This document shows positions 5,032 to 11,339 of a stretch of DNA of 14,431 bases, in pieces. This DNA comes from a virus. The number at the start of each line of letters is the position of its first letter. Positions within the stretch are counted from its first letter, which is position 1. Below the pieces are notes generated by a model that was not told the DNA's origin, ran no database searches, and saw nothing but the letters and a program-made list of their open reading frames with translations. The position numbers and the translations under genes were made by a program. The stretch lies in UHGV virus genome UHGV-1968440; one strand, given 5' to 3'.

Positions 5032-5153
5032 GAAACCAGAACATGCACACACAAAAAAACCGCTTGCCATGCCGCAATCAGTCAGGTTACATTTCCGCTG
5101 CACCTCATAAAACGGGTGCCGGGATTTCCACCCCGCTGACAACCAAAGCGCAC

Positions 5154-5174
5154 AACCGCGCCAGCGGTTTTTTT
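5154..5174 (+). terminator. Candidate intrinsic terminator inside the early region
   Basis: Stem aaccgc/gcggtt with 4-nt loop followed by a run of seven T (5168..5174), ~120 bp after the stop at 5031. Confidence 0.45.
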
Positions 5175-5353
5175 GTGCGTACCGTATCGCCACGTCTTTT
5201 TCGCACACGAATTATGGTGGGGCGTACAGGGCCGACTTCGGTCGGGCCGGGTTCTTTGGTTGCCGGTTGTGGAAACCCTGTACGTCTCACCACCCCGAGT
5301 TTTCCACCTCTGGATGGTGAGTTTTCAAAACTTACAACCAAAGAGGCCACCCC

Positions 5354-5656: not shown

Positions 5657-6046
5657 ATGATTGACGCTCATGACTTCACAAGATGGGTGCGCACACAGGA
5701 CACCCGTCTGGCTCCCGTTCTTCAGGGATTATTTGATCTCTACATCCGTGGTCGTGACAACAGAGCACGCACCACAAAACCGGAGAATGCAGACACCCTT
5801 TATTTCACAGTAGACGACTGCTACCGCGTGGACTTCACACCACACGGGCTGGCGTTGCACTGCCTGACACCACACGGAGAATCACTGCTGGCGTATTACG
5901 ACTCCCCGACCTCCGTATTTGCGGCAATGCTGGCGCATCGCACTGCTGGCGGGTGTGCCTCGCTGAGTGAATACACCGCTGAATTTAACCGCCTTTCTGC
6001 CCTCTTCTCGCAGGAGTGGCAGCGCGTGACGGGATACCAGCCATGA
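5657..6046 (+). CDS. Hypothetical protein translationally coupled to the replication initiator gene
   Basis: 129-aa ORF; its TGA (6044..6046) overlaps the ATG (6043..6045) of the downstream large gene. Confidence 0.6.
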   Translation: MIDAHDFTRWVRTQDTRLAPVLQGLFDLYIRGRDNRARTTKPENADTLYFTVDDCYRVDFTPHGLALHCLTPHGESLLAYYDSPTSVFAAMLAHRTAGGCASLSEYTAEFNRLSALFSQEWQRVTGYQP

Positions 6047-8883
6047 ATGAGTTTGCATGGAGCTGGAATGAACCACGGCCAGCCATTGATCCGGCCAGAT
6101 TTACGGAGCACAGGCAGGAAACTGAAACCGACCTGCAACGCGCCATCCGTTACTACCTTGAGGCAGACAAAAAGGCTCTGGAAGAACAGGAAGCGAAGGA
6201 GGAAGCCTTTTTCGCACAATCCACCGTGGGTAAAAAACTCATGGCATCCCTTGAGGAAGCCGGACAGCGTGAAAAGCTGGCACAAAGCATCATCAGCAAG
6301 CGTCAGGCAACAGAACAAGACCCGGTGGCCCGTGCTTTTGCCACACTGAAGGTGCTTCCCGTTTATCTGCGTAAACCTCTGAGCCGCCACCTCTCTTTCC
6401 TGCGCAAAAAACAGGAAGCCGATCGCCAGAAAGGCAAAAAGAGCTGGCAGGCTGAACGCTACGCGCGCGGAACCCTGCGCAAAATATTCGAACGCCTGGA
6501 CCGCACCGACCACCGCTGGCTGACACCGGGTTATCGCTCCCTTGCCGGACGCGAACGCCTGGATGATTTGCTTTACCTGCCGCAGCTCAACAAGCACCAG
6601 ATACAGACGCTGGCCACCATGACGGCGGCGATGTTCAGCAGCACCTTCGAAAAACTCTGCGATGGCTTTGGCGCGACCGATGGTGAGCTGACCATGGATG
6701 TAACGCTGAAGGCGTATCAGATGCTGGCCCGCATGGCGTTACACCTGCACGCCATGCCTCCACATTATGACGCACTGACAACAGACAAAGACCGGAGGAA
6801 CGAACCGGACACGGAGCTGCTGCCGGGCGCAACCCTTCGCCTGACCTGTGCGGAATGGTGGAAACGCAAACTGTGGCTGTTACGTTGCGAGTGGCGGGAA
6901 GAACAACTCCGCGCCGCCTGTCTGGTTTCCAGAAAAACATCACCCTATCTGAGCCAGGACGCGTTAAGCGAGTTTCGCGCACAGCGCGAGAAAACACGCG
7001 ATTTCCTGAAAAGTTTCATGCTGGAAAATGAAGACGGGTTCACGATTGATCTCGAGACGGTGTATTACGCGGGAGTAAGTAACCCGGTTCACCGTAAGGC
7101 AGAAATGATGGCCACCATGAAGGGGCTGGAACTTCTGGCCGAAGCCCGTGGCGACAGAGCGGTGTTTCTGACTGTCACCTGCCCGTCAAAATACCACGCA
7201 ACAACGGAGAACGGTCATCCGAATCCCAAATGGAACGGGGCCACAATGCGCGACTCCAGCGATTACCTGGTTAACACGTTTTTTGCGGCGGTCCGCAAAA
7301 AACTGAACCGCGACGGCCTGCGCTGGTATGGCATCCGCACGGTGGAGCCTCACCATGACGGCACTGTGCACTGGCATATGATGGTCTTTGCACATCCGGA
7401 CGAGATTGAAACCATCGTGTCCCACGTCTGCGATATTGCCATTCAGGAAGACCGCCACGAGCTGGGCGATGACATAACTCCGCGTTTTAAGGCGGAGTAC
7501 GTCGACGGCTCAAAAGGCACGCCAACCAGCTACATCGCCACCTACATCGGAAAGAACCTGGACAGCCGCGCCGTGGATGGCATCGACCCGAAAACGGGCA
7601 AGCCACGCGTTGACCACGAAACAGGTAAATCAATGGCCGAGAGCGTGGAGCGCGCCATCGGCTGGGCGCGCCTTCACCGGGTCCGTCAGTTCCAGTTCTT
7701 TGGCATCCCCTCCCGTCAGGTGTGGCGTGAACTGCGCCGCCTTGCCAGCCAGATGGCACGCAATCCGGAAGGCCCGCAACGGCTGAAGGATGACGCAATG
7801 GACGCGGTACTCGCTGCCGCTGATGCCGGATGTTTTGCCACCTACATTGAGAAACAGGGTGGCGTACTTGTTCCACGCAAAGACTACCTGATTCGCACCG
7901 CCTACGACCTCGCAGATGAGCTGAACGATTACGGTGAACAGAGCGTACAGATTTACGGGATCTGGTCGCCGCTCATTGGGGAGTCTTCCCGCGTATGCAC
8001 GCATCCGGATAACTGGAAGCTGGTAAGACGCAAACCGGAAGCGGAAGACAGCGCCCGCGAAAATGGTTTTGACCTTCAGGGCGGCCCTGCCGCCCCTTGG
8101 ACTCGTGGCAATAACTGTCCCCGTGTACAGGAAACAGGCAACAACGGGACAGAACAGCCGGAAGAACGGCCAGCACCGTGGCCGCAGCTTCCTGACGGCG
8201 TTGAAGTAAATGAATGGATGCGCTCACTGAAACGGCACGAACGCCGGGCGCTGATGCGTTCGCTTCGTGACAAACAGGCAAAAAACAGCAGCGATGAAAT
8301 GCAGAACTGGACACAGAGCCGCAAACAGCAGCGGCCTTTGCCTGATAACCACGAGTTACTCGCTAAAGAATGGCGGGAGTCTGCTGAATCTCTCGGCCTG
8401 CATATCGGTGAACAACAGATGCAGCACCTGTTACGGGGCGGCAGTCTGTACGTTGACGGCAGCATCATTGCACCGCAGGGATTTGAAATTGTACGCAAAC
8501 CGGATACCCGCCCGGACAGCCGAATCACGCAGCTCTGGCAGCGTCTGAGCCGTAATCATGGCGTAAGCAGCACGGAGATCCGCCATAACCCGGTCGCCAG
8601 CTATCTGGCACAGCTGGGGGCATCAGACCCTGAAGCCGCCGCACGCCTGGCATCCACACTTCAGCAGGACCAGAACACCATGAAAACACCCGTTACCGTG
8701 CTTTCTGACATGCTGCGCGCCATCCGCGACGCAGAGCACGCACAGAGAATCAGTGAAACCACTGAACGCGCCAGCCGCAAAGCAGACCTGCTGCGGGGTG
8801 GCCTGACCAGTGGAAACAAAAAACAGACAGAAACGGGACTCACGAATCCCGTAAATGAGCAAAAAACGCGCAGCGATATATGA
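6043..8883 (+). CDS. A: Rolling-circle replication initiator, P2 gpA-type HUH endonuclease
   Basis: Track ORF 6016..8883; likely start MNEFAWSW at 6043. HUH metal-binding motif VHWHMMVF (codons 7366..7389) and a paired-tyrosine motif YIATYIGKN (7531..7557), as in phiX174 gpA / P2 gpA-type initiators. Last large gene of the early operon. ~946 aa, longer than P2 gpA as I recall it (~760 aa). Confidence 0.85.
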   Translation: MNEFAWSWNEPRPAIDPARFTEHRQETETDLQRAIRYYLEADKKALEEQEAKEEAFFAQSTVGKKLMASLEEAGQREKLAQSIISKRQATEQDPVARAFATLKVLPVYLRKPLSRHLSFLRKKQEADRQKGKKSWQAERYARGTLRKIFERLDRTDHRWLTPGYRSLAGRERLDDLLYLPQLNKHQIQTLATMTAAMFSSTFEKLCDGFGATDGELTMDVTLKAYQMLARMALHLHAMPPHYDALTTDKDRRNEPDTELLPGATLRLTCAEWWKRKLWLLRCEWREEQLRAACLVSRKTSPYLSQDALSEFRAQREKTRDFLKSFMLENEDGFTIDLETVYYAGVSNPVHRKAEMMATMKGLELLAEARGDRAVFLTVTCPSKYHATTENGHPNPKWNGATMRDSSDYLVNTFFAAVRKKLNRDGLRWYGIRTVEPHHDGTVHWHMMVFAHPDEIETIVSHVCDIAIQEDRHELGDDITPRFKAEYVDGSKGTPTSYIATYIGKNLDSRAVDGIDPKTGKPRVDHETGKSMAESVERAIGWARLHRVRQFQFFGIPSRQVWRELRRLASQMARNPEGPQRLKDDAMDAVLAAADAGCFATYIEKQGGVLVPRKDYLIRTAYDLADELNDYGEQSVQIYGIWSPLIGESSRVCTHPDNWKLVRRKPEAEDSARENGFDLQGGPAAPWTRGNNCPRVQETGNNGTEQPEERPAPWPQLPDGVEVNEWMRSLKRHERRALMRSLRDKQAKNSSDEMQNWTQSRKQQRPLPDNHELLAKEWRESAESLGLHIGEQQMQHLLRGGSLYVDGSIIAPQGFEIVRKPDTRPDSRITQLWQRLSRNHGVSSTEIRHNPVASYLAQLGASDPEAAARLASTLQQDQNTMKTPVTVLSDMLRAIRDAEHAQRISETTERASRKADLLRGGLTSGNKKQTETGLTNPVNEQKTRSDI

Positions 8884-8928
8884 GGCGCGCACAAAACAGG
8901 CAAAAACGGGATTTCAGAATCCCGTAAA
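8821..8928. repeat. Two copies of a ~35-bp iterated dyad element (parC-like centromere/operator or ori-associated site)
   Basis: AAACAGRCARAAACGGGAYTYASGAATCCCGTAAA at 8821..8855 and 8893..8928; each copy contains the inverted pair ACGGGA/TCCCGT; spacing ~72 bp. Copy 1 lies inside the 3' end of the A gene, copy 2 in the parM upstream region. Confidence 0.6.
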
Positions 8929-8959
8929 CGATTAATTAATCAACATAAGGAAAACCGAC

Positions 8960-9919
8960 ATGAAAATTTACATCGACGACGGCTCCACCAACATCAAGCT
9001 GGCATGGACTGAGAACGGCGAACGCCGCAACGCCATCAGCCCGAACAGCTTCAAGTCGGAATGGTCTGCGCCGTTCGGTGGCTCGCAGCCTGCTAACTAC
9101 ATGCTTGATGGCGTGCGCTATGGTTTTGATCCGGTCAGCGATCGCTTTGTCCAGACGACCGACACGCAATACCAGTACAGCGATGTGAATGTCATTGCCA
9201 TTCATCACGCGCTGGTCAAATCAGACATCACGCCACAGGAAGTGGATGTGGTTGTTACCCTGCCACTGAGCGAATATTTCGACACAAACGCACAGCCGGA
9301 CATGGCCAACATCAACCGCAAAAAAGCGAACGTCATGCGCCCGGTGGAGTACCAGAACGGCGAAGCATTCACTATCCGTAACGTACGGGTTATGCCTGAA
9401 TCCATTCCGGCTGGCTTTAAAGCACTGGCTGACATGAGTCCGTTTGAATCCCTGCTGATTGTGGATTTGGGCGGAACCACGCTGGATGTGGCAAAGGTTC
9501 AGGGGCAACTGGCAGGTATCAGCCAGGTGTTTTGCGATCCACACGTAGGCGTTTCTCTTATGGCCGATGCCGTACTGTCGGTGATGGCCACTAACGGTAT
9601 GCGCACCAGTCACCACATCGCCAATACCATTATCGAACATCGCCATAATGAAGCCTGGCTGCGCCAGCACATCCACAATGACGCGCATTACGCCAGCCTG
9701 ATGGCGGTTATTCGTGAAAAGGAAGAAACACTGAAACAACGCGTGATCCGCGCGCTGGCGGTTTTTTCGGGTTACGGGCGGGTGATGGTTGTCGGTGGCG
9801 GGGCGGAGATTGTGGCACCCGCTATCCGCGAAGCCTGCGGAGTTAATGCGACTTTCATCGCGGACGGGGTGCCACAGTTTGCTCTGGTTAATGGGCTGTA
9901 CGCAATGGACAAGGAGTAA
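8960..9919 (+). CDS. parM: ParM/StbA-like actin-type segregation ATPase
   Basis: 319-aa ORF. N-terminal MKIYIDDGSTNIKLAW, then SPNSFK, YSDVNV, HHAL, MPESIPAGF, DLGGTTLDV, GVSL, VVGGGAE and LVNGLYAM match, in order, the motifs I recall from plasmid R1 ParM (actin/ASKHA fold). SD-like AGGA 8 nt upstream of the ATG. Confidence 0.85.
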   Translation: MKIYIDDGSTNIKLAWTENGERRNAISPNSFKSEWSAPFGGSQPANYMLDGVRYGFDPVSDRFVQTTDTQYQYSDVNVIAIHHALVKSDITPQEVDVVVTLPLSEYFDTNAQPDMANINRKKANVMRPVEYQNGEAFTIRNVRVMPESIPAGFKALADMSPFESLLIVDLGGTTLDVAKVQGQLAGISQVFCDPHVGVSLMADAVLSVMATNGMRTSHHIANTIIEHRHNEAWLRQHIHNDAHYASLMAVIREKEETLKQRVIRALAVFSGYGRVMVVGGGAEIVAPAIREACGVNATFIADGVPQFALVNGLYAMDKE

Positions 9920-9923
9920 ACCA

Positions 9924-10235
9924 ATGACGACACCAACCAGACGGATAAGTTTCTATCTGAAGCCCGCCGCCGTCAAGAACGAAGGAGAAGCATGCGCCTG
10001 GCTGGACAGCCTTACACCAGAAGCCCGCAAAAGCGGCCAACGCGTGGCTTTTCTGGCCGGGCTGGCACTTCTGAAGACGAATCCGGCAGAGGCTTACCGA
10101 CTGGCCGCATGGGCTGATGATGAGATGTTACCTGTGACACAAATCAGCTCAAAAAAGTTTGAAGCACAGTCTGCACCAGTGGCTAAGATAACCAGCCAGA
10201 TGGCTGGGAATATCCGGGCGTTATTTCCTGAGTAA
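9924..10235 (+). CDS. parR: ParR/StbB-like centromere-binding adaptor
   Basis: Track ORF 9789..10235 is an upstream-extended version; ATG at 9924 has SD AAGGAG (9911..9916) and follows the parM stop by 4 nt. Translation MTTPTRRISFYLKPAAVKNEGEACAWLDSLTPEARKSGQRVAFLAGLALL parallels the N-terminal region of R1 ParR as recalled (RTIAFKLNP...LDSIPQGERSRLNRAALTAGLAL). Confidence 0.75.
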   Translation: MTTPTRRISFYLKPAAVKNEGEACAWLDSLTPEARKSGQRVAFLAGLALLKTNPAEAYRLAAWADDEMLPVTQISSKKFEAQSAPVAKITSQMAGNIRALFPE

Positions 10236-10355
10236 AAGCATCTGCGCGAAAAATGCTCACGTTTATAGAGACAGTATCATTCCATTTGGCACACTTACTT
10301 CAATAATCGATCTGTTAAACAAATAGATTGTCTATTATCTATCGATTAAAACGAT

Positions 10356-10420
10356 CAATTATCTTGACAGTAATGTGCCTTTTTGTAAGATCGTTCGCAT
10401 TGTGAGCGACAAGATAATTG
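10356..10420 (+). promoter_or_regulatory. Sigma70-like promoter bracketed by 11-bp inverted repeats (operator-controlled promoter)
   Basis: TTGACA at 10364..10369, 16-bp spacer, TAAGAT at 10386..10391. Flanked by CAATTATCTTG (10356..10366) and its inverse CAAGATAATTG (10410..10420). A 15-bp palindrome AATAGATTGTCTATT (10322..10336) lies just upstream. Confidence 0.5.
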
Positions 10421-10441
10421 CGCGGCATTGTCCATGCAAAA

Positions 10442-10469
10442 CGCCCCAATAGCAGCAACTATTGGGGCG
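10442..10469. other. Perfect 11-bp stem hairpin in the leader of the 89-aa gene
   Basis: cgccccaatag / ctattggggcg with 6-nt loop. On the minus strand it is followed by TTTTG, so it could act as a leftward terminator or as an RNA/DNA structural element. Confidence 0.45.
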
Positions 10470-10599
10470 TAAAACTCGGTCGGGCTCACTTAACCTGATA
10501 TGCGTGCCTTCCGAAGTAAATCAAAATGTGCGTCGTATATTTTATTGCTTACACGCACCTCTGTAAAGGCACGCATATTTTTCCTATGAGGTAAATAAA

Positions 10600-10869
10600 G
10601 TGCGGGCTAAAACAGGTATTTGCAAGAACCCTCATCGTTATAATCCAACATTTCTGTCTCTCCCTGAATATCAAGGACAAGAAGGTCGGCACAAATGCGC
10701 TGCCTGTGCTTTTGAGCTAGGCATAAAAGATGCGCTTGAAGGACGCGCTATGGCTCAGAATGATTTAGTTTTAGCTAACATTCCGTTTAGCCAGGCTGGA
10801 ACTGTAAGGCACAGAGATGCCTATGAAGCATATGTTCGTGGTTGGCGATTAATAAACAGCAACAATTGA
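10600..10869 (+). CDS. Hypothetical small Cys/His-containing protein (accessory island cargo)
   Basis: 89-aa ORF with GTG start; SD GAGGT at 10588..10592. Residues C8, H12, C34, C37 (CKNPH ... HKCAACAF) could form a small metal-binding site. Followed by a clear intrinsic terminator. Confidence 0.5.
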   Translation: MRAKTGICKNPHRYNPTFLSLPEYQGQEGRHKCAACAFELGIKDALEGRAMAQNDLVLANIPFSQAGTVRHRDAYEAYVRGWRLINSNN

Positions 10870-10877
10870 TACTTTTG

Positions 10878-10901
10878 AAGCGCCGATAAGGCGCTTTTTT
10901 T
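10878..10901 (+). terminator. Rho-independent terminator after the 89-aa gene
   Basis: Stem aagcgcc/ggcgctt with loop gataa, followed by TTTTT (10897..10901); starts 9 nt after the stop codon. Confidence 0.7.
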
Positions 10902-11294
10902 GTTTGCACGATAGTGCACAAGTTTGCACAATTTTTTTGAACGACTTTTTGTACTTCCGGCCCGCGTGGTGGCTGGATCCGTCAAGGATCCGTACGTGCA
11001 CAAAAAAACGCGTTTTTTCTGCGCGCAGGTGACGGGGGAACAGCCCGCGTTTCAGGGGGTAAATAGCATTCCCTGAACGATGTCGCAGAGACACAACAGA
11101 ATGGCCATATTTCTCACGCTGAGCATGAAAAAGGCGTGAGGGCTTTTGATTTGATGGGGTGAAAGGTAAGGCCGTCAAAATCGCACTGAGGCAGCGAGAA
11201 CATACAGTCAACGCGGTGGAATTGCGTAAGAGTCTGACCGTCGATGGTGGCGATAAACTGGAAGGCGTCGTGAAATTATCTGATTGATACAGGA

Positions 11295-11339
11295 GCTGCT
11301 TCGCCGGGGCATAAATTTTTTATGCCCCGGCGAAGCAGC
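11295..11339. repeat. Perfect 21-bp inverted repeat (45-bp palindrome)
   Basis: gctgcttcgccggggcataaa / tttatgccccggcgaagcagc around a 3-nt centre; GC-rich arms with an AT-rich centre; no flanking T-tract on either strand; ~90 bp upstream of the 174-aa gene. Confidence 0.7.

What the first reader, a model, noticed from the sequence alone, without database searches (positions are those of the whole stretch)
10236..10901. Small Cys/His protein gene behind an operator-bracketed promoter and ~200-nt structured leader
A near-consensus promoter (TTGACA, 16 bp, TAAGAT) is flanked by 11-bp inverted repeats and preceded by a 15-bp palindrome. The predicted leader contains a perfect 11-bp hairpin (10442..10469) and 13-bp inverted repeats ATATGCGTGCCTT / AAGGCACGCATAT (10499..10511 and 10566..10578) that end right at the ribosome-binding site. 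This is a lot of control for an 89-aa protein and is typical of a toxic or conditionally expressed product (abortive infection, exclusion, toxin). The protein has a possible four-residue metal site.
Basis: partly seen in the sequence, partly recalled or inferred. Interest (0 to 1): 0.6.

Follow-up and report, generated by a model that had tools for sequence, protein, structure and literature searches.

The report
Antisense-controlled prophage gene, methylation-linked zinc protein
A small self-contained gene cassette in a P2-like E. coli prophage encodes an uncharacterised zinc-binding protein whose relatives elsewhere always sit beside GATC DNA-methylation/restriction genes, and what looked like a structured leader is largely a conserved antisense small-RNA gene that probably keeps the protein switched off.

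Summary
The 89-aa ORF (10600-10869) is a real gene. It belongs to a family of at least 915 protein clusters with no Pfam, NCBIfam or PADLOC match and no recognisable fold relative. The C8/H12/C33/C36 site is conserved, and the domain is an internal duplication.

The interpretation needs revising. The hairpins in the "leader" mostly reflect a convergent, previously undescribed antisense sRNA of about 96 nt (promoter 10567→10539, terminator 10470→10441). In an alignment of 23 upstream regions from seven diverged sequence groups, the most conserved bases are that minus-strand promoter.

The unit at about 10290-10900 is a mobile gene cassette. It occurs in P2-like, P22-like and lambdoid prophages, on plasmids and in chromosomal islets. 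Its sense promoter is enriched in Dam (GATC) sites, one of which overlaps the -10.

Outside Dam-positive gammaproteobacteria, every sampled relative (14 of 14) lies next to a Dam-class methyltransferase, usually with DpnII. Some relatives are fused to nucleases.

My best reading is an antisense-RNA-controlled and probably Dam-sensitive cassette that encodes a DNA reader linked to GATC methylation. Toxicity and anti-phage activity are untested.

The parts
10290..10905 (+). Extent of the mobile cassette: regulatory region, leader/antisense gene, ORF and terminator.
   Evidence: Homology with the diverged G2 cassettes starts near 'caataatcGATCtgttaaaca'. Phage P88 and other relatives realign only from about 10878-10905 onward and carry other genes here.
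10309..10392 (.). Three Dam sites (GATC at 10309, 10353, 10389). The last overlaps the -10 hexamer (TAAGAT|C).
   Evidence: 3 observed against 0.34 expected. The sites are conserved in position in group G2. Across all groups, promoter regions hold 46 GATC against 8.3 expected.
10322..10336 (.). 15-bp palindrome AATAGA-TTG-TCTATT upstream of the promoter.
   Evidence: Read. A related ATAGAT...ATCTAT repeat is present in G2. Its role is unknown.
10356..10420 (.). Perfect 11-bp inverted repeat (10356-10366 / 10410-10420) bracketing the sense promoter. Possible operator.
   Evidence: Not conserved in other groups and no further copy in the window.
10364..10391 (+). Sense promoter: TTGACA, 16-nt spacer, TAAGAT. 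Predicted transcription start about 10397-10399.
   Evidence: TTGACA-16-TAGGAT lies at the same position in G2, and -10 boxes are visible in G3-G5.
10398..10599 (+). 5' untranslated leader of about 200 nt.
   Evidence: Inferred from the promoter and ORF positions. Folding z = -3.2.
10437..10532 (-). Predicted cis-antisense sRNA of about 96 nt with two stem-loops, fully complementary to the middle of the leader.
   Evidence: Promoter and terminator positions. Fold -37.9 kcal/mol, z = -4.0. All 22 homologous regions folded give the same plan of one stem-loop plus a terminator, with different sequences. No Rfam family matches.
10441..10470 (-). Terminator hairpin of the antisense RNA: 12-13 bp stem followed by UUUUG on the minus strand.
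   Evidence: At the homologous position other groups have hairpins of different sequence, each followed by a T-run on the minus strand.
10539..10567 (-). Antisense promoter: -35 TTTACA (10567-10562), 17-nt spacer, -10 TAAAAT (10544-10539).
   Evidence: TTTACA and the A and T of the -10 are the invariant or near-invariant columns in the 23-sequence alignment. The promoter lies 30-42 nt upstream of the start codon in about 25 loci, and also in L132 and L137.
10498..10578 (+). 13-bp perfect inverted repeat (10498-10510 / 10566-10578). It can pair only in the sense mRNA: the left arm lies inside the antisense target and the right arm overlaps the antisense -35.
   Evidence: Analogous sense-only repeats with other sequences were read by eye in groups G2, G4 and G5.
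10588..10592 (+). Shine-Dalgarno GAGGT, 8 nt before the GTG start.
   Evidence: It is predicted to pair with CCUCAU at 10630-10635 inside the ORF.
10600..10869 (+). 89-aa ORF: a stand-alone, internally duplicated CHCC zinc domain (phrog_3941).
10877..10905 (+). Intrinsic terminator of the sense gene: 8-bp GC-rich stem followed by a T-run.

Best explanation
Bases about 10290-10905 form a self-contained, horizontally mobile accessory cassette in the cos-proximal hot spot of a P2-like prophage.

Layout. A sigma-70 promoter carrying Dam sites, one of them overlapping its -10, transcribes a leader of about 200 nt followed by an 89-aa gene. Inside the leader, a convergent promoter on the opposite strand makes an antisense RNA of about 96 nt with two stem-loops. 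This RNA ends at the 12-bp hairpin.

Inferred control. In the lysogen the antisense RNA pairs with the leader and keeps the protein from being made, through occlusion or refolding of the ribosome-binding region, mRNA cleavage, or transcriptional interference. Full Dam methylation may also damp the sense promoter. The gene would then fire mainly when its DNA is newly replicated or unmethylated. This is the control logic known from IS10 transposase and from type I toxin-antitoxin loci.

Protein. It is a stand-alone copy of a previously undescribed zinc-binding domain that arose by internal duplication. The domain depends on a GATC-methylating background: relatives are either in Dam-positive hosts or encoded next to a Dam-class methyltransferase, usually with DpnII. 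In some relatives the domain is fused to nucleases. It most likely reads DNA at GATC according to methylation state and acts in conflicts between mobile elements and hosts, either excluding foreign DNA or shielding DNA from restriction.

Status of each step. Shown: the gene, the family, the conserved residues, the duplication, the genomic associations, and the conservation of the antisense promoter and terminator. Inferred: that the antisense RNA is made, that it represses, that the promoter is Dam-sensitive, that the protein binds DNA, and any phenotype.
For: Gene and family.
- phrog_3941 match at E = 9e-49.
- 173 representatives at 50% identity and 915 clusters at 90% identity, all named 'hypothetical' and none with a Pfam domain.
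- C8, R30, G41, Q65, R70 and H71 are invariant. H12, C33 and C36 are at least 90% conserved.
- The two halves of the domain align with 98.5% probability, E = 2e-15.
- The AlphaFold model is confident (pLDDT 90, pTM 0.83).

Antisense RNA.
- A minus-strand promoter TTTACA-17-TAAAAT is present.
- In the alignment of 23 upstream regions from seven groups, whose proteins are about 50-60% identical to the window protein, the invariant columns are the -35 and the key -10 positions of that promoter.
- The promoter lies 30-42 nt upstream of the start codon, and a hairpin plus T-run lies 105-176 nt upstream, in most loci. The stems differ in sequence between groups.
- All predicted RNAs fold as one stem-loop plus a terminator, z = -1.2 to -5.4.
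- These features are absent from copies embedded in restriction-modification operons.

Mobility.
- P2-like prophages, downstream of ParM/ParR.
- A P22-like phage, between cI and N.
- A Providencia lambdoid prophage, between the Q-like gene and the holin.
- Chromosomal islets and conjugative plasmids.
- This exact locus is listed, untested, in the gpA-gpQ hot-spot catalogue of Rousset et al. 2022 (PMC9122126).

GATC link.
- Promoter regions hold 46 GATC against 8.3 expected.
- All 14 sampled loci outside the Dam-positive gammaproteobacteria carry a D12 and/or N6_N4 adenine methyltransferase within a few genes, with DpnII or a DUF6996/6997/7226 protein in all but one.
- The domain is fused to NOV_C, HNH_2, DGQHR and WYL modules.
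Against: - There is no transcript evidence for either RNA.
- The antisense terminator has a short U-tract (UUUUG).
- The antisense RNA does not overlap the SD or the start codon.
- Thermodynamic modelling of ribosome-site accessibility with and without bound antisense RNA is inconsistent. Accessibility of the SD or start codon falls in a majority of the 16 leaders modelled, but in the window's own sequence the SD is predicted to open.
- GATC enrichment is absent from the Pectobacterium and Serratia groups.
- No GATC clusters were seen around the family's genes in restriction-modification operons.
- DNA binding is inferred only from fusions, conserved Arg/Gln/His residues and gene neighbourhood.
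- Neither PADLOC nor any other defence library recognises the protein.
Confidence: 0.6

Rival explanations
1. It is a true type I toxin-antitoxin or abortive-infection module. The 89-aa protein would be toxic, for instance by coating or blocking DNA. The antisense RNA would be the antitoxin, and loss of that RNA or phage infection would release the toxin. This is a narrower version of the best explanation.
For: - Convergent antisense RNA against a long 5' UTR, with a poorly accessible ribosome site.
- Stand-alone cassettes sit among TA and defence genes on plasmids and in prophage defence hot spots.
- The antisense control appears only where the gene stands alone, not where it is co-transcribed with methyltransferases. 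This fits a product that is dangerous without a dedicated partner.
Against: - The protein is soluble, 89 aa and not hydrophobic.
- Relatives are co-transcribed in ordinary operons with no RNA antitoxin.
- There are no toxicity data and no PADLOC match.
Confidence: 0.3
2. One reading: the hairpins act only in the sense mRNA, as an attenuator, thermosensor or riboswitch-like leader that hides the SD, and no antisense RNA is involved.
For: - The sense leader folds better than shuffles (z = -3.2).
- The 13-bp repeat can form only in the sense RNA.
- The SD is predicted to be paired.
Against: - The best-conserved bases of the region form a minus-strand promoter.
- T-runs follow the hairpin on the minus strand and A-runs precede it on the plus strand in all groups.
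- No Rfam cis-regulatory family matches.
Confidence: 0.08
3. The small protein is a transcription factor: a zinc-based analogue of restriction-modification controller proteins, or a phage regulator. It would bind the repeats and GATC sites at its own promoter and at target promoters, and would not act on foreign DNA.
For: - Small size, conserved basic and polar residues, and an internal two-fold repeat suited to palindromic sites.
- Palindromes and an inverted repeat lie at its promoter.
- It occurs at either end of restriction-modification operons, and one relative is fused to a WYL regulator.
Against: - Fusions of tandem copies to NOV_C and HNH nucleases and to DGQHR proteins are not typical of controller proteins.
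- The 11-bp repeat is not conserved and has no other copy in the prophage.
- The protein has no HTH.
Confidence: 0.15
4. The minus-strand sRNA is the main product and acts in trans on host or phage mRNAs. The ORF would be incidental or only weakly expressed.
For: The sRNA has a conserved promoter, a two-stem-loop plan and a U-rich stretch before the terminator.
Against: - The ORF is under strong protein-level conservation across phyla.
- The sRNA sequence itself diverges freely between groups while staying complementary to its own leader.
- The sRNA is found only next to this gene.
Confidence: 0.07
5. The repeat-rich DNA downstream of the ParR-like gene is the partition site (parC) of the neighbouring ParM/ParR system rather than the control region of the small gene.
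For: It lies immediately after the StbB/ParR gene and contains several palindromes.
Against: - The same regulatory region travels with the small gene in phages and islets that have no ParM/ParR.
- It contains no iteron arrays.
- A better parC candidate lies upstream of parM: two 42-nt direct repeats at 8817-8858 and 8890-8931.
Confidence: 0.03

Closest known systems
IS10/Tn10 transposase control (Dam-sensitive pIN plus antisense RNA-OUT). Established knowledge, recalled from memory.
   Same: A GATC overlaps the last bases of the sense -10 (TAAGAT|C here). A convergent promoter inside the 5' region makes a stable stem-loop antisense RNA. Both layers would limit expression to newly replicated or unmethylated DNA.
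   Different: The product is not a transposase. The antisense RNA here covers the middle of a 200-nt leader and not the start codon. Dam dependence is not demonstrated.
Type I toxin-antitoxin loci with soluble toxins (symE/symR; ralR/ralA of the Rac prophage) and hok/sok-type leaders. Established knowledge.
   Same: A small protein gene on a mobile element, a long structured 5' UTR, a cis-encoded antisense sRNA with a stem-loop plus terminator, and a sequestered ribosome site. RalR is likewise a small zinc-type prophage protein linked to restriction alleviation.
   Different: There is no sequence or fold similarity to any known toxin. Toxicity is untested. The family also lives in ordinary operons without an RNA partner.
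DpnII-type GATC restriction-modification cassettes (dpnM / dpnA / dpnB)
   Same: Relatives of the 89-aa protein are encoded inside operons with a D12 methyltransferase, a DpnII endonuclease and an N6_N4 methyltransferase.
   Different: The classical cassette has no such fourth gene. The window copy has no adjacent methyltransferase and would rely on the host's Dam.
Reader-nuclease restriction enzymes, in which a modification-sensing domain is fused to an HNH or PD-(D/E)XK nuclease (for example SRA-HNH or sulfur-binding-domain-HNH enzymes). Established knowledge.
   Same: Tandem copies of this domain replace the reader module in front of HNH_2 and NOV_C nucleases.
   Different: The domain is unrelated to SRA, winged-helix or sulfur-binding readers. 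The window protein has no nuclease. Its ligand is unknown.
Accessory and defence genes of the P2 cos-proximal hot spot (old, tin and others; Rousset et al. 2022, PMC9122126), and of the cI-N interval of lambdoid phages (rexAB, and bstA from memory)
   Same: Same genomic positions, with the cassette carrying its own promoter and terminator.
   Different: No anti-phage activity has been tested for this cassette. It is listed only as 'hypothetical'.

Membership tests
Type I toxin-antitoxin system | Protein gene paired with an antisense sRNA gene complementary to its mRNA | tested here: met
   A conserved minus-strand promoter and terminator lie inside the 5' UTR. This is a prediction from sequence conservation; no transcript data are available.
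Type I toxin-antitoxin system | Product is toxic when expressed without the RNA | not testable with these tools
   Needs inducible expression in dam+ and dam- cells.
Type I toxin-antitoxin system | Toxin is usually a hydrophobic membrane peptide of fewer than 60 aa | tested here: not met
   The protein is 89 aa, soluble, and a confidently folded helical zinc domain. SymE and RalR are known exceptions to this rule.
Type I toxin-antitoxin system | The RNA represses translation or stability of the toxin mRNA | tested here: inconclusive
   Accessibility modelling shows a drop at the SD or start codon in a majority of the 16 homologous leaders, but the opposite for the window's SD.
IS10-type dual control | Dam site within the -10 of the sense promoter | tested here: met
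   GATC at 10389-10392 overlaps TAAGAT. The same arrangement occurs in G2 (TAGGATC) and in some G4 loci.
IS10-type dual control | Transcription depends on methylation state | not testable with these tools
   Needs promoter fusions in dam+, dam- and seqA- backgrounds.
IS10-type dual control | The antisense RNA covers the ribosome-binding site or start codon | tested here: not met
   The predicted antisense RNA spans 10437-10532. The SD is at 10588 and the start codon at 10600.
Restriction-modification controller (C) proteins | Helix-turn-helix fold (Pfam HTH_3-like) | tested here: not met
   No HTH family matched, no PDB sequence matched and no fold matched.
Ogr/Delta zinc-finger late activators of P2-like phages | Sequence membership (Pfam Ogr_Delta) and a Cys4 finger | tested here: not met
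   A Pfam scan at E <= 1 returned only one sub-threshold, unrelated match. The ligands here are Cys-His-Cys-Cys.
Lar/RalR restriction-alleviation proteins | Sequence membership in the Lar family | tested here: not met
   No Pfam match. The resemblance is conceptual only.
P2 gpA-gpQ hot-spot anti-phage systems | Located between the replication gene A and the portal gene Q | tested here: met
   Gene order. The locus is listed as 'StbA + Plasmid_stab_B + hypothetical' in Rousset et al. 2022.
P2 gpA-gpQ hot-spot anti-phage systems | Protects against phage infection | not tested
   No PADLOC model matches. No experiment was found in the searchable literature.
phrog_3941 | Profile match over the full length | tested here: met
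   E = 9.1e-49, covering residues 4-89 against profile positions 1-86 of 86. The family's function is unknown.
ParMRC centromere (parC) | Arrays of short iterons bound by ParR, normally upstream of parM | tested here: not met
   There is no iteron array at 10236-10600. The region travels with the small gene in elements lacking ParM/ParR.

The most novel reading that the evidence does not exclude
The domain is a previously unrecognised reader of GATC methylation state, and the prophage copy uses the host's own Dam mark as its 'self' label. It would be a nuclease-free, restriction-like discriminator of foreign DNA, or alternatively a Ral-like shield for unmethylated DNA. It would be switched on only when its own promoter is unmethylated and its antisense RNA is outrun. 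That would make it a new class of methylation-based self/non-self module, spread across phages, plasmids and DpnII-type operons.
Probability: 0.25. Interest if true: 0.85.

Novelty: new variant of a known kind. Interest (0 to 1): 0.68.

Why it matters
1. It defines a widespread protein domain (at least 915 clusters across Pseudomonadota, Bacteroidota and Bacillota) with no family annotation and no detectable fold relative. A simple genomic rule holds for this domain: it occurs only where GATC-type adenine methylation is available. This gives restriction-modification biology a concrete, testable candidate for a new accessory or reader component.

2. It adds an undescribed cis-antisense sRNA family to prophage accessory cassettes that sit in the known defence hot spots of P2-like and P22-like phages.

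3. It corrects annotation. At least one deposited phage genome has a spurious ORF called over the leader and antisense gene, and RefSeq lists no ORF under the match in about half of the top E. coli hits.

4. If Dam sensitivity and antisense control are confirmed, this would be a second natural example of the IS10 control logic attached to a completely different kind of gene.

Tried and rejected
- **Rfam.** Searches at gathering thresholds and at permissive E-values on the window and on eight homologous loci found nothing in this region except partial terminator-like hits.
- **Locus search with the broad alignment.** A narrower alignment worked.
- **LexA box.** CTGTTAAACAAATAGA near 10312 lacks the ACAG half-site, so I rejected it by eye.
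- **Operator repeat elsewhere in the prophage.** No other copy was found; matches with up to 2 mismatches are at chance level.
- **parC hypothesis.** Rejected.
- **GATC clusters near family genes in restriction-modification operons.** None were evident.
- **Consensus structure on a plain MAFFT alignment.** It recovered only the base of the terminator stem because the groups are too diverged to align. Per-sequence folds were used instead.
- **Ribosome-site accessibility modelling.** Ambiguous for the window sequence.
- **The DUF6996/6997/7226 partner protein.** Could not be identified.
- **Literature.** Searches for the family, its partner domains and an antisense/Dam-controlled prophage toxin found no prior description.
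Full report
**Context**

The window is a P2-like (Xuanwuvirus/P88-like, Peduoviridae) E. coli prophage. Bases 10100-11300 are 96.5-99.9% identical over their full length to 166 complete E. coli genomes and to two deposited phages (520873 and 503458).

The gene order is integrase, repressor, early genes, replication endonuclease A (6016-8883), ParM (8960-9919), a StbB/ParR-like protein (9924-10235), a 365-bp gap, the 89-aa ORF (10600-10869), the cos-proximal region, a 174-aa ORF, and then portal Q and terminase P on the minus strand.

The interval between A and Q is the hot spot of variable anti-phage and accessory genes described by Rousset et al. 2022 (PMC9122126). [quoted passage not shown] Phage P88 carries two unrelated genes at the same place.

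**Observation check**

- The promoter is TTGACA-16-TAAGAT at 10364-10391.
- The 11-bp inverted repeat is at 10356-10366 / 10410-10420.
- The perfect hairpin has a 12-bp stem at 10441-10452 / 10459-10470.
- The 13-bp inverted repeat is at 10498-10510 / 10566-10578.
- The 15-bp palindrome is at 10322-10336.

The window holds eight perfect inverted repeats (arms of at least 11 nt, gap of at most 60 nt) against 0.16 expected from shuffles. Three of them lie within 10356-10578. The sense leader folds better than shuffled sequence (z = -3.2). The promoter scan alone is at chance level (2 found, 2.0 expected), so the case for the promoters rests on conservation. The ORF has a good SD (GAGG at 10588-10591), a GTG start and an intrinsic terminator at 10877-10897.

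**The protein**

The ORF matches phrog_3941, a family of unknown function, at E = 9e-49. It matches nothing in Pfam, NCBIfam or PADLOC.

An exhaustive HMMER search found 173 representatives at 50% identity. A profile search found 915 clusters at 90% identity, all called 'hypothetical' and none with a Pfam domain.

In an alignment of 41 diverse stand-alone members, C8, R30, G41, Q65, R70 and H71 are invariant. H12, R13, Q25, H31, C33, C36, S64 and A66 are at least 90% conserved.

The motif LPxSQxGxxRH(K/R)...AYxxGY occurs twice. The two halves of the domain align with 98.5% probability (E = 2e-15), which shows an internal duplication.

AlphaFold2 gives a confident model (pLDDT 90, pTM 0.83). 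No structural relative was found:
- Foldseek against PDB: best E 1.9.
- Foldseek against BFVD: best E 0.8.
- A sequence profile against PDB: no hit.

**What the domain keeps company with**

In longer proteins the domain appears in four kinds of fusion:
- as tandem copies in front of an HNH_2 nuclease;
- as tandem copies in front of a NOV_C/DUF3883 PD-(D/E)XK-type domain;
- at the C-terminus of DGQHR/DndB-family proteins;
- after a WYL domain.

Gene neighbourhoods are very consistent.
- Three Bacteroidales loci have a D12 (Dam-class) methyltransferase, a DpnII endonuclease, this domain (as a 279-aa protein or a stand-alone 90-aa protein) and an N6_N4 methyltransferase.
- Three NOV_C fusions (from Flavobacterium, Runella and a third assembly whose organism was not shown) lie in the same kind of DpnII operon.
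- Another stand-alone copy sits just upstream of a DpnII operon.
- Five distinct arrangements pair it with a D12 methyltransferase and a DUF6996/6997/7226 protein. One further arrangement in the same genomic position retains only a truncated DUF6997/7226 gene. Two of these loci are on Lactobacillaceae plasmids.
- One locus follows an N6_N4 methyltransferase.

By contrast, copies in E. coli, Salmonella, Providencia, Serratia, Pectobacterium, Vibrio, Aeromonas and E. marmotae have no adjacent methyltransferase. From established knowledge, these are all Dam-positive gammaproteobacteria.

The rule 'Dam-positive host or an adjacent adenine methyltransferase (Dam-class in nearly all)' held in all the distinct contexts examined, about two dozen. 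I infer that the protein's activity is tied to GATC methylation. A nuclease directed at methylated DNA would be lethal beside its cognate methyltransferase. Reading of unmethylated GATC is therefore the more economical guess, but it is only a guess. The two-fold internal repeat, with its conserved Arg and Gln, would suit a short palindrome.

**The 'structured leader' is largely an antisense RNA gene**

The scan found a minus-strand promoter, TTTACA-17-TAAAAT (10567→10539). A transcript starting near 10532 would run into the 12-bp hairpin, which on the minus strand is followed by UUUUG. This gives an RNA of about 96 nt that folds at -37.9 kcal/mol (z = -4.0).

I collected homologous cassettes from viral, genome and metagenome collections and scanned the upstream regions of 45 distinct homologues.
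- A minus-strand promoter of the form TTTAC(A/T)-17/18-(T/C)AnnAT lies 30-42 nt upstream of the start codon in about 25 loci.
- A minus-strand hairpin plus T-run lies 105-176 nt upstream in most of them.
- The stem sequences differ from group to group (for example ACGCCCCAATAG, AAGCCGGATTCACAA, GCCCGATA, GGCCCAGAAGG).

In an alignment of 23 upstream regions from seven sequence groups, whose proteins are about 50-60% identical to the window protein, four of the six invariant columns belong to this promoter: two T of the -35, and the A and T of the -10. The rest of TTTACA is at least 90% conserved. In the loci where my strict scan missed the promoter, TGTAAA is still present with a weaker TAATCT -10.

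All 22 predicted RNAs fold as one stem-loop plus a terminator, with z scores of -1.2 to -5.4. No Rfam family matches, either in the window or in eight homologous loci. Copies of the gene embedded in restriction-modification operons lack these features.

The 13-bp repeat can form only in the sense RNA. Its right arm overlaps the antisense -35 and its left arm lies inside the antisense target. By eye, sense-only repeats of different sequence occupy the same position in other groups.

The SD is predicted to pair with CCUCAU at 10630-10635 inside the ORF. I modelled ribosome-site accessibility with the antisense target blocked. Accessibility of the SD or start codon falls in a majority of the 16 leaders, but in the window's own sequence the SD opens. 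I therefore treat the mechanism of repression as unresolved.

**The cassette is mobile**

The same unit of promoter, leader with antisense gene, ORF and terminator occurs in these places:
- after ParM/ParR in other P2-like prophages, where the protein is only about 52-57% identical;
- directly after the cI terminator, between cI and N, in Salmonella P22-like phage BIS08P22, where an annotated 'hypothetical protein' overlies the leader and is probably spurious;
- between the Q-like gene and the holin, on the opposite strand, in a Providencia prophage;
- in chromosomal islets of Pectobacterium and Serratia and between nupC and yfeC-like genes;
- on conjugative plasmids next to TA and defence genes.

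**Dam sites**

The window has three GATC sites within 84 bp at the sense promoter. The last one overlaps the -10 (TAAGAT|C). Across the representative cassettes, the promoter regions hold 46 GATC against 8.3 expected from their flanks. The enrichment is in groups G1-G5 and is absent from the two chromosomal groups. A GATC abuts the -10 in several groups, as TAGGATCGATC, TATGATC or TATAATGATC.

From established knowledge, recalled from memory, a Dam site in the -10 combined with a convergent antisense RNA is the control scheme of IS10 transposase. That scheme restricts expression to newly replicated DNA.

**Most likely mechanism, and what is shown versus inferred**

Shown:
- a real, conserved gene for a new, internally duplicated domain with a conserved Cys-His-Cys-Cys site;
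- its dependence on an adenine-methylation context;
- its fusions to nucleases and regulators;
- a conserved minus-strand promoter and terminator inside the leader;
- the mobility of the cassette;
- the GATC enrichment.

Inferred:
- that the antisense RNA is made and represses;
- that methylation modulates the sense promoter;
- that the protein binds zinc and DNA at GATC;
- that it acts in exclusion or anti-restriction.

The type I toxin-antitoxin reading is a plausible special case but fails the 'small hydrophobic toxin' criterion, and toxicity is untested. The parC, pure cis-leader and trans-acting sRNA readings are unlikely for the reasons given under the rival explanations.

**Verdict**

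This is not an ordinary hypothetical gene. It combines an undescribed antisense sRNA family with an undescribed protein domain linked to restriction-modification systems. I rate it a new variant of a known kind (an antisense-controlled accessory cassette) with interest 0.68. The more novel reading, a new reader of GATC methylation state that uses host Dam as the self mark, has a probability of about 0.25.

Noticed in passing
window 5100-5297 (+): Rfam matches above gathering score to isrK (5100-5174, 64 bits) and the C4 antisense RNA (5210-5297, 82 bits). They lie side by side in the prophage early region. This looks like a P1/P7-type or Gifsy-type RNA immunity/antirepressor module inside a P2-like phage.
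   Followed up: no
window 8817-8858 and 8890-8931: Two 42-nt direct repeats (81% identical), each containing the palindrome ACGGGA...TCCCGT. They straddle the end of gene A and the start of parM. They are a likely ParR-binding centromere/promoter (parC) for the ParM/StbB partition module, which is unusual cargo for a P2-like prophage.
   Followed up: partly
window 9924-10235 compared with L063/L070/L109: Between otherwise similar P2-like prophages, ParM is 95-98% identical while the adjacent ParR/StbB-like protein is only 48-54% identical. This suggests swapping of partition specificity.
   Followed up: no
window 11295-11339: A perfect 21-bp inverted repeat with a 3-nt loop (GCTGCTTCGCCGGGGCATAAA / TTTATGCCCCGGCGAAGCAGC), the longest in the window. 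It lies between the cos-proximal region and the 174-aa ORF (phrog_5091, unknown function). It may be a bidirectional terminator.
   Followed up: no
L137 3165-3401 (Salmonella phage BIS08P22, OP377721.1): The annotated 'hypothetical protein' directly after cI overlies the cassette's promoter, leader and antisense terminator, so it is probably a false gene call. Conversely, about half of the top E. coli RefSeq hits list no ORF under the match at the 89-aa gene.
   Followed up: partly
L042/L043 5315-6337 (Pectobacterium): In Pectobacterium the small gene is followed, 48 nt later, by a 340-aa DUF4062 protein. This may be a two-gene variant of the cassette.
   Followed up: no
window 10513-10523 compared with 10588-10598: By eye, the leader contains a near-copy of the ribosome-binding region (GAAGTAAATCA compared with GAGGTAAATAA). 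The antisense RNA, being complementary to the first copy, could also pair with about 10 nt of the true SD region. No equivalent was seen in the one other group checked (G4, by eye).
   Followed up: partly
window 10499-10589 and 10525-10594: Two short upstream ORFs (29 and 22 codons, neither with a convincing SD) end at or within the SD of the main gene. A database variant (P0002, 114 aa) fuses one of them to the main ORF, apparently through a 1-nt difference in the T-run at 10579-10583.
   Followed up: no
L131 4750-6865 (Vibrio alginolyticus): Here the family member sits in a four-gene operon of unknown proteins (80, 86, 344 and 187 aa) between a GmrSD type IV restriction gene and an HNH gene. 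This may be an uncharacterised defence system.
   Followed up: no
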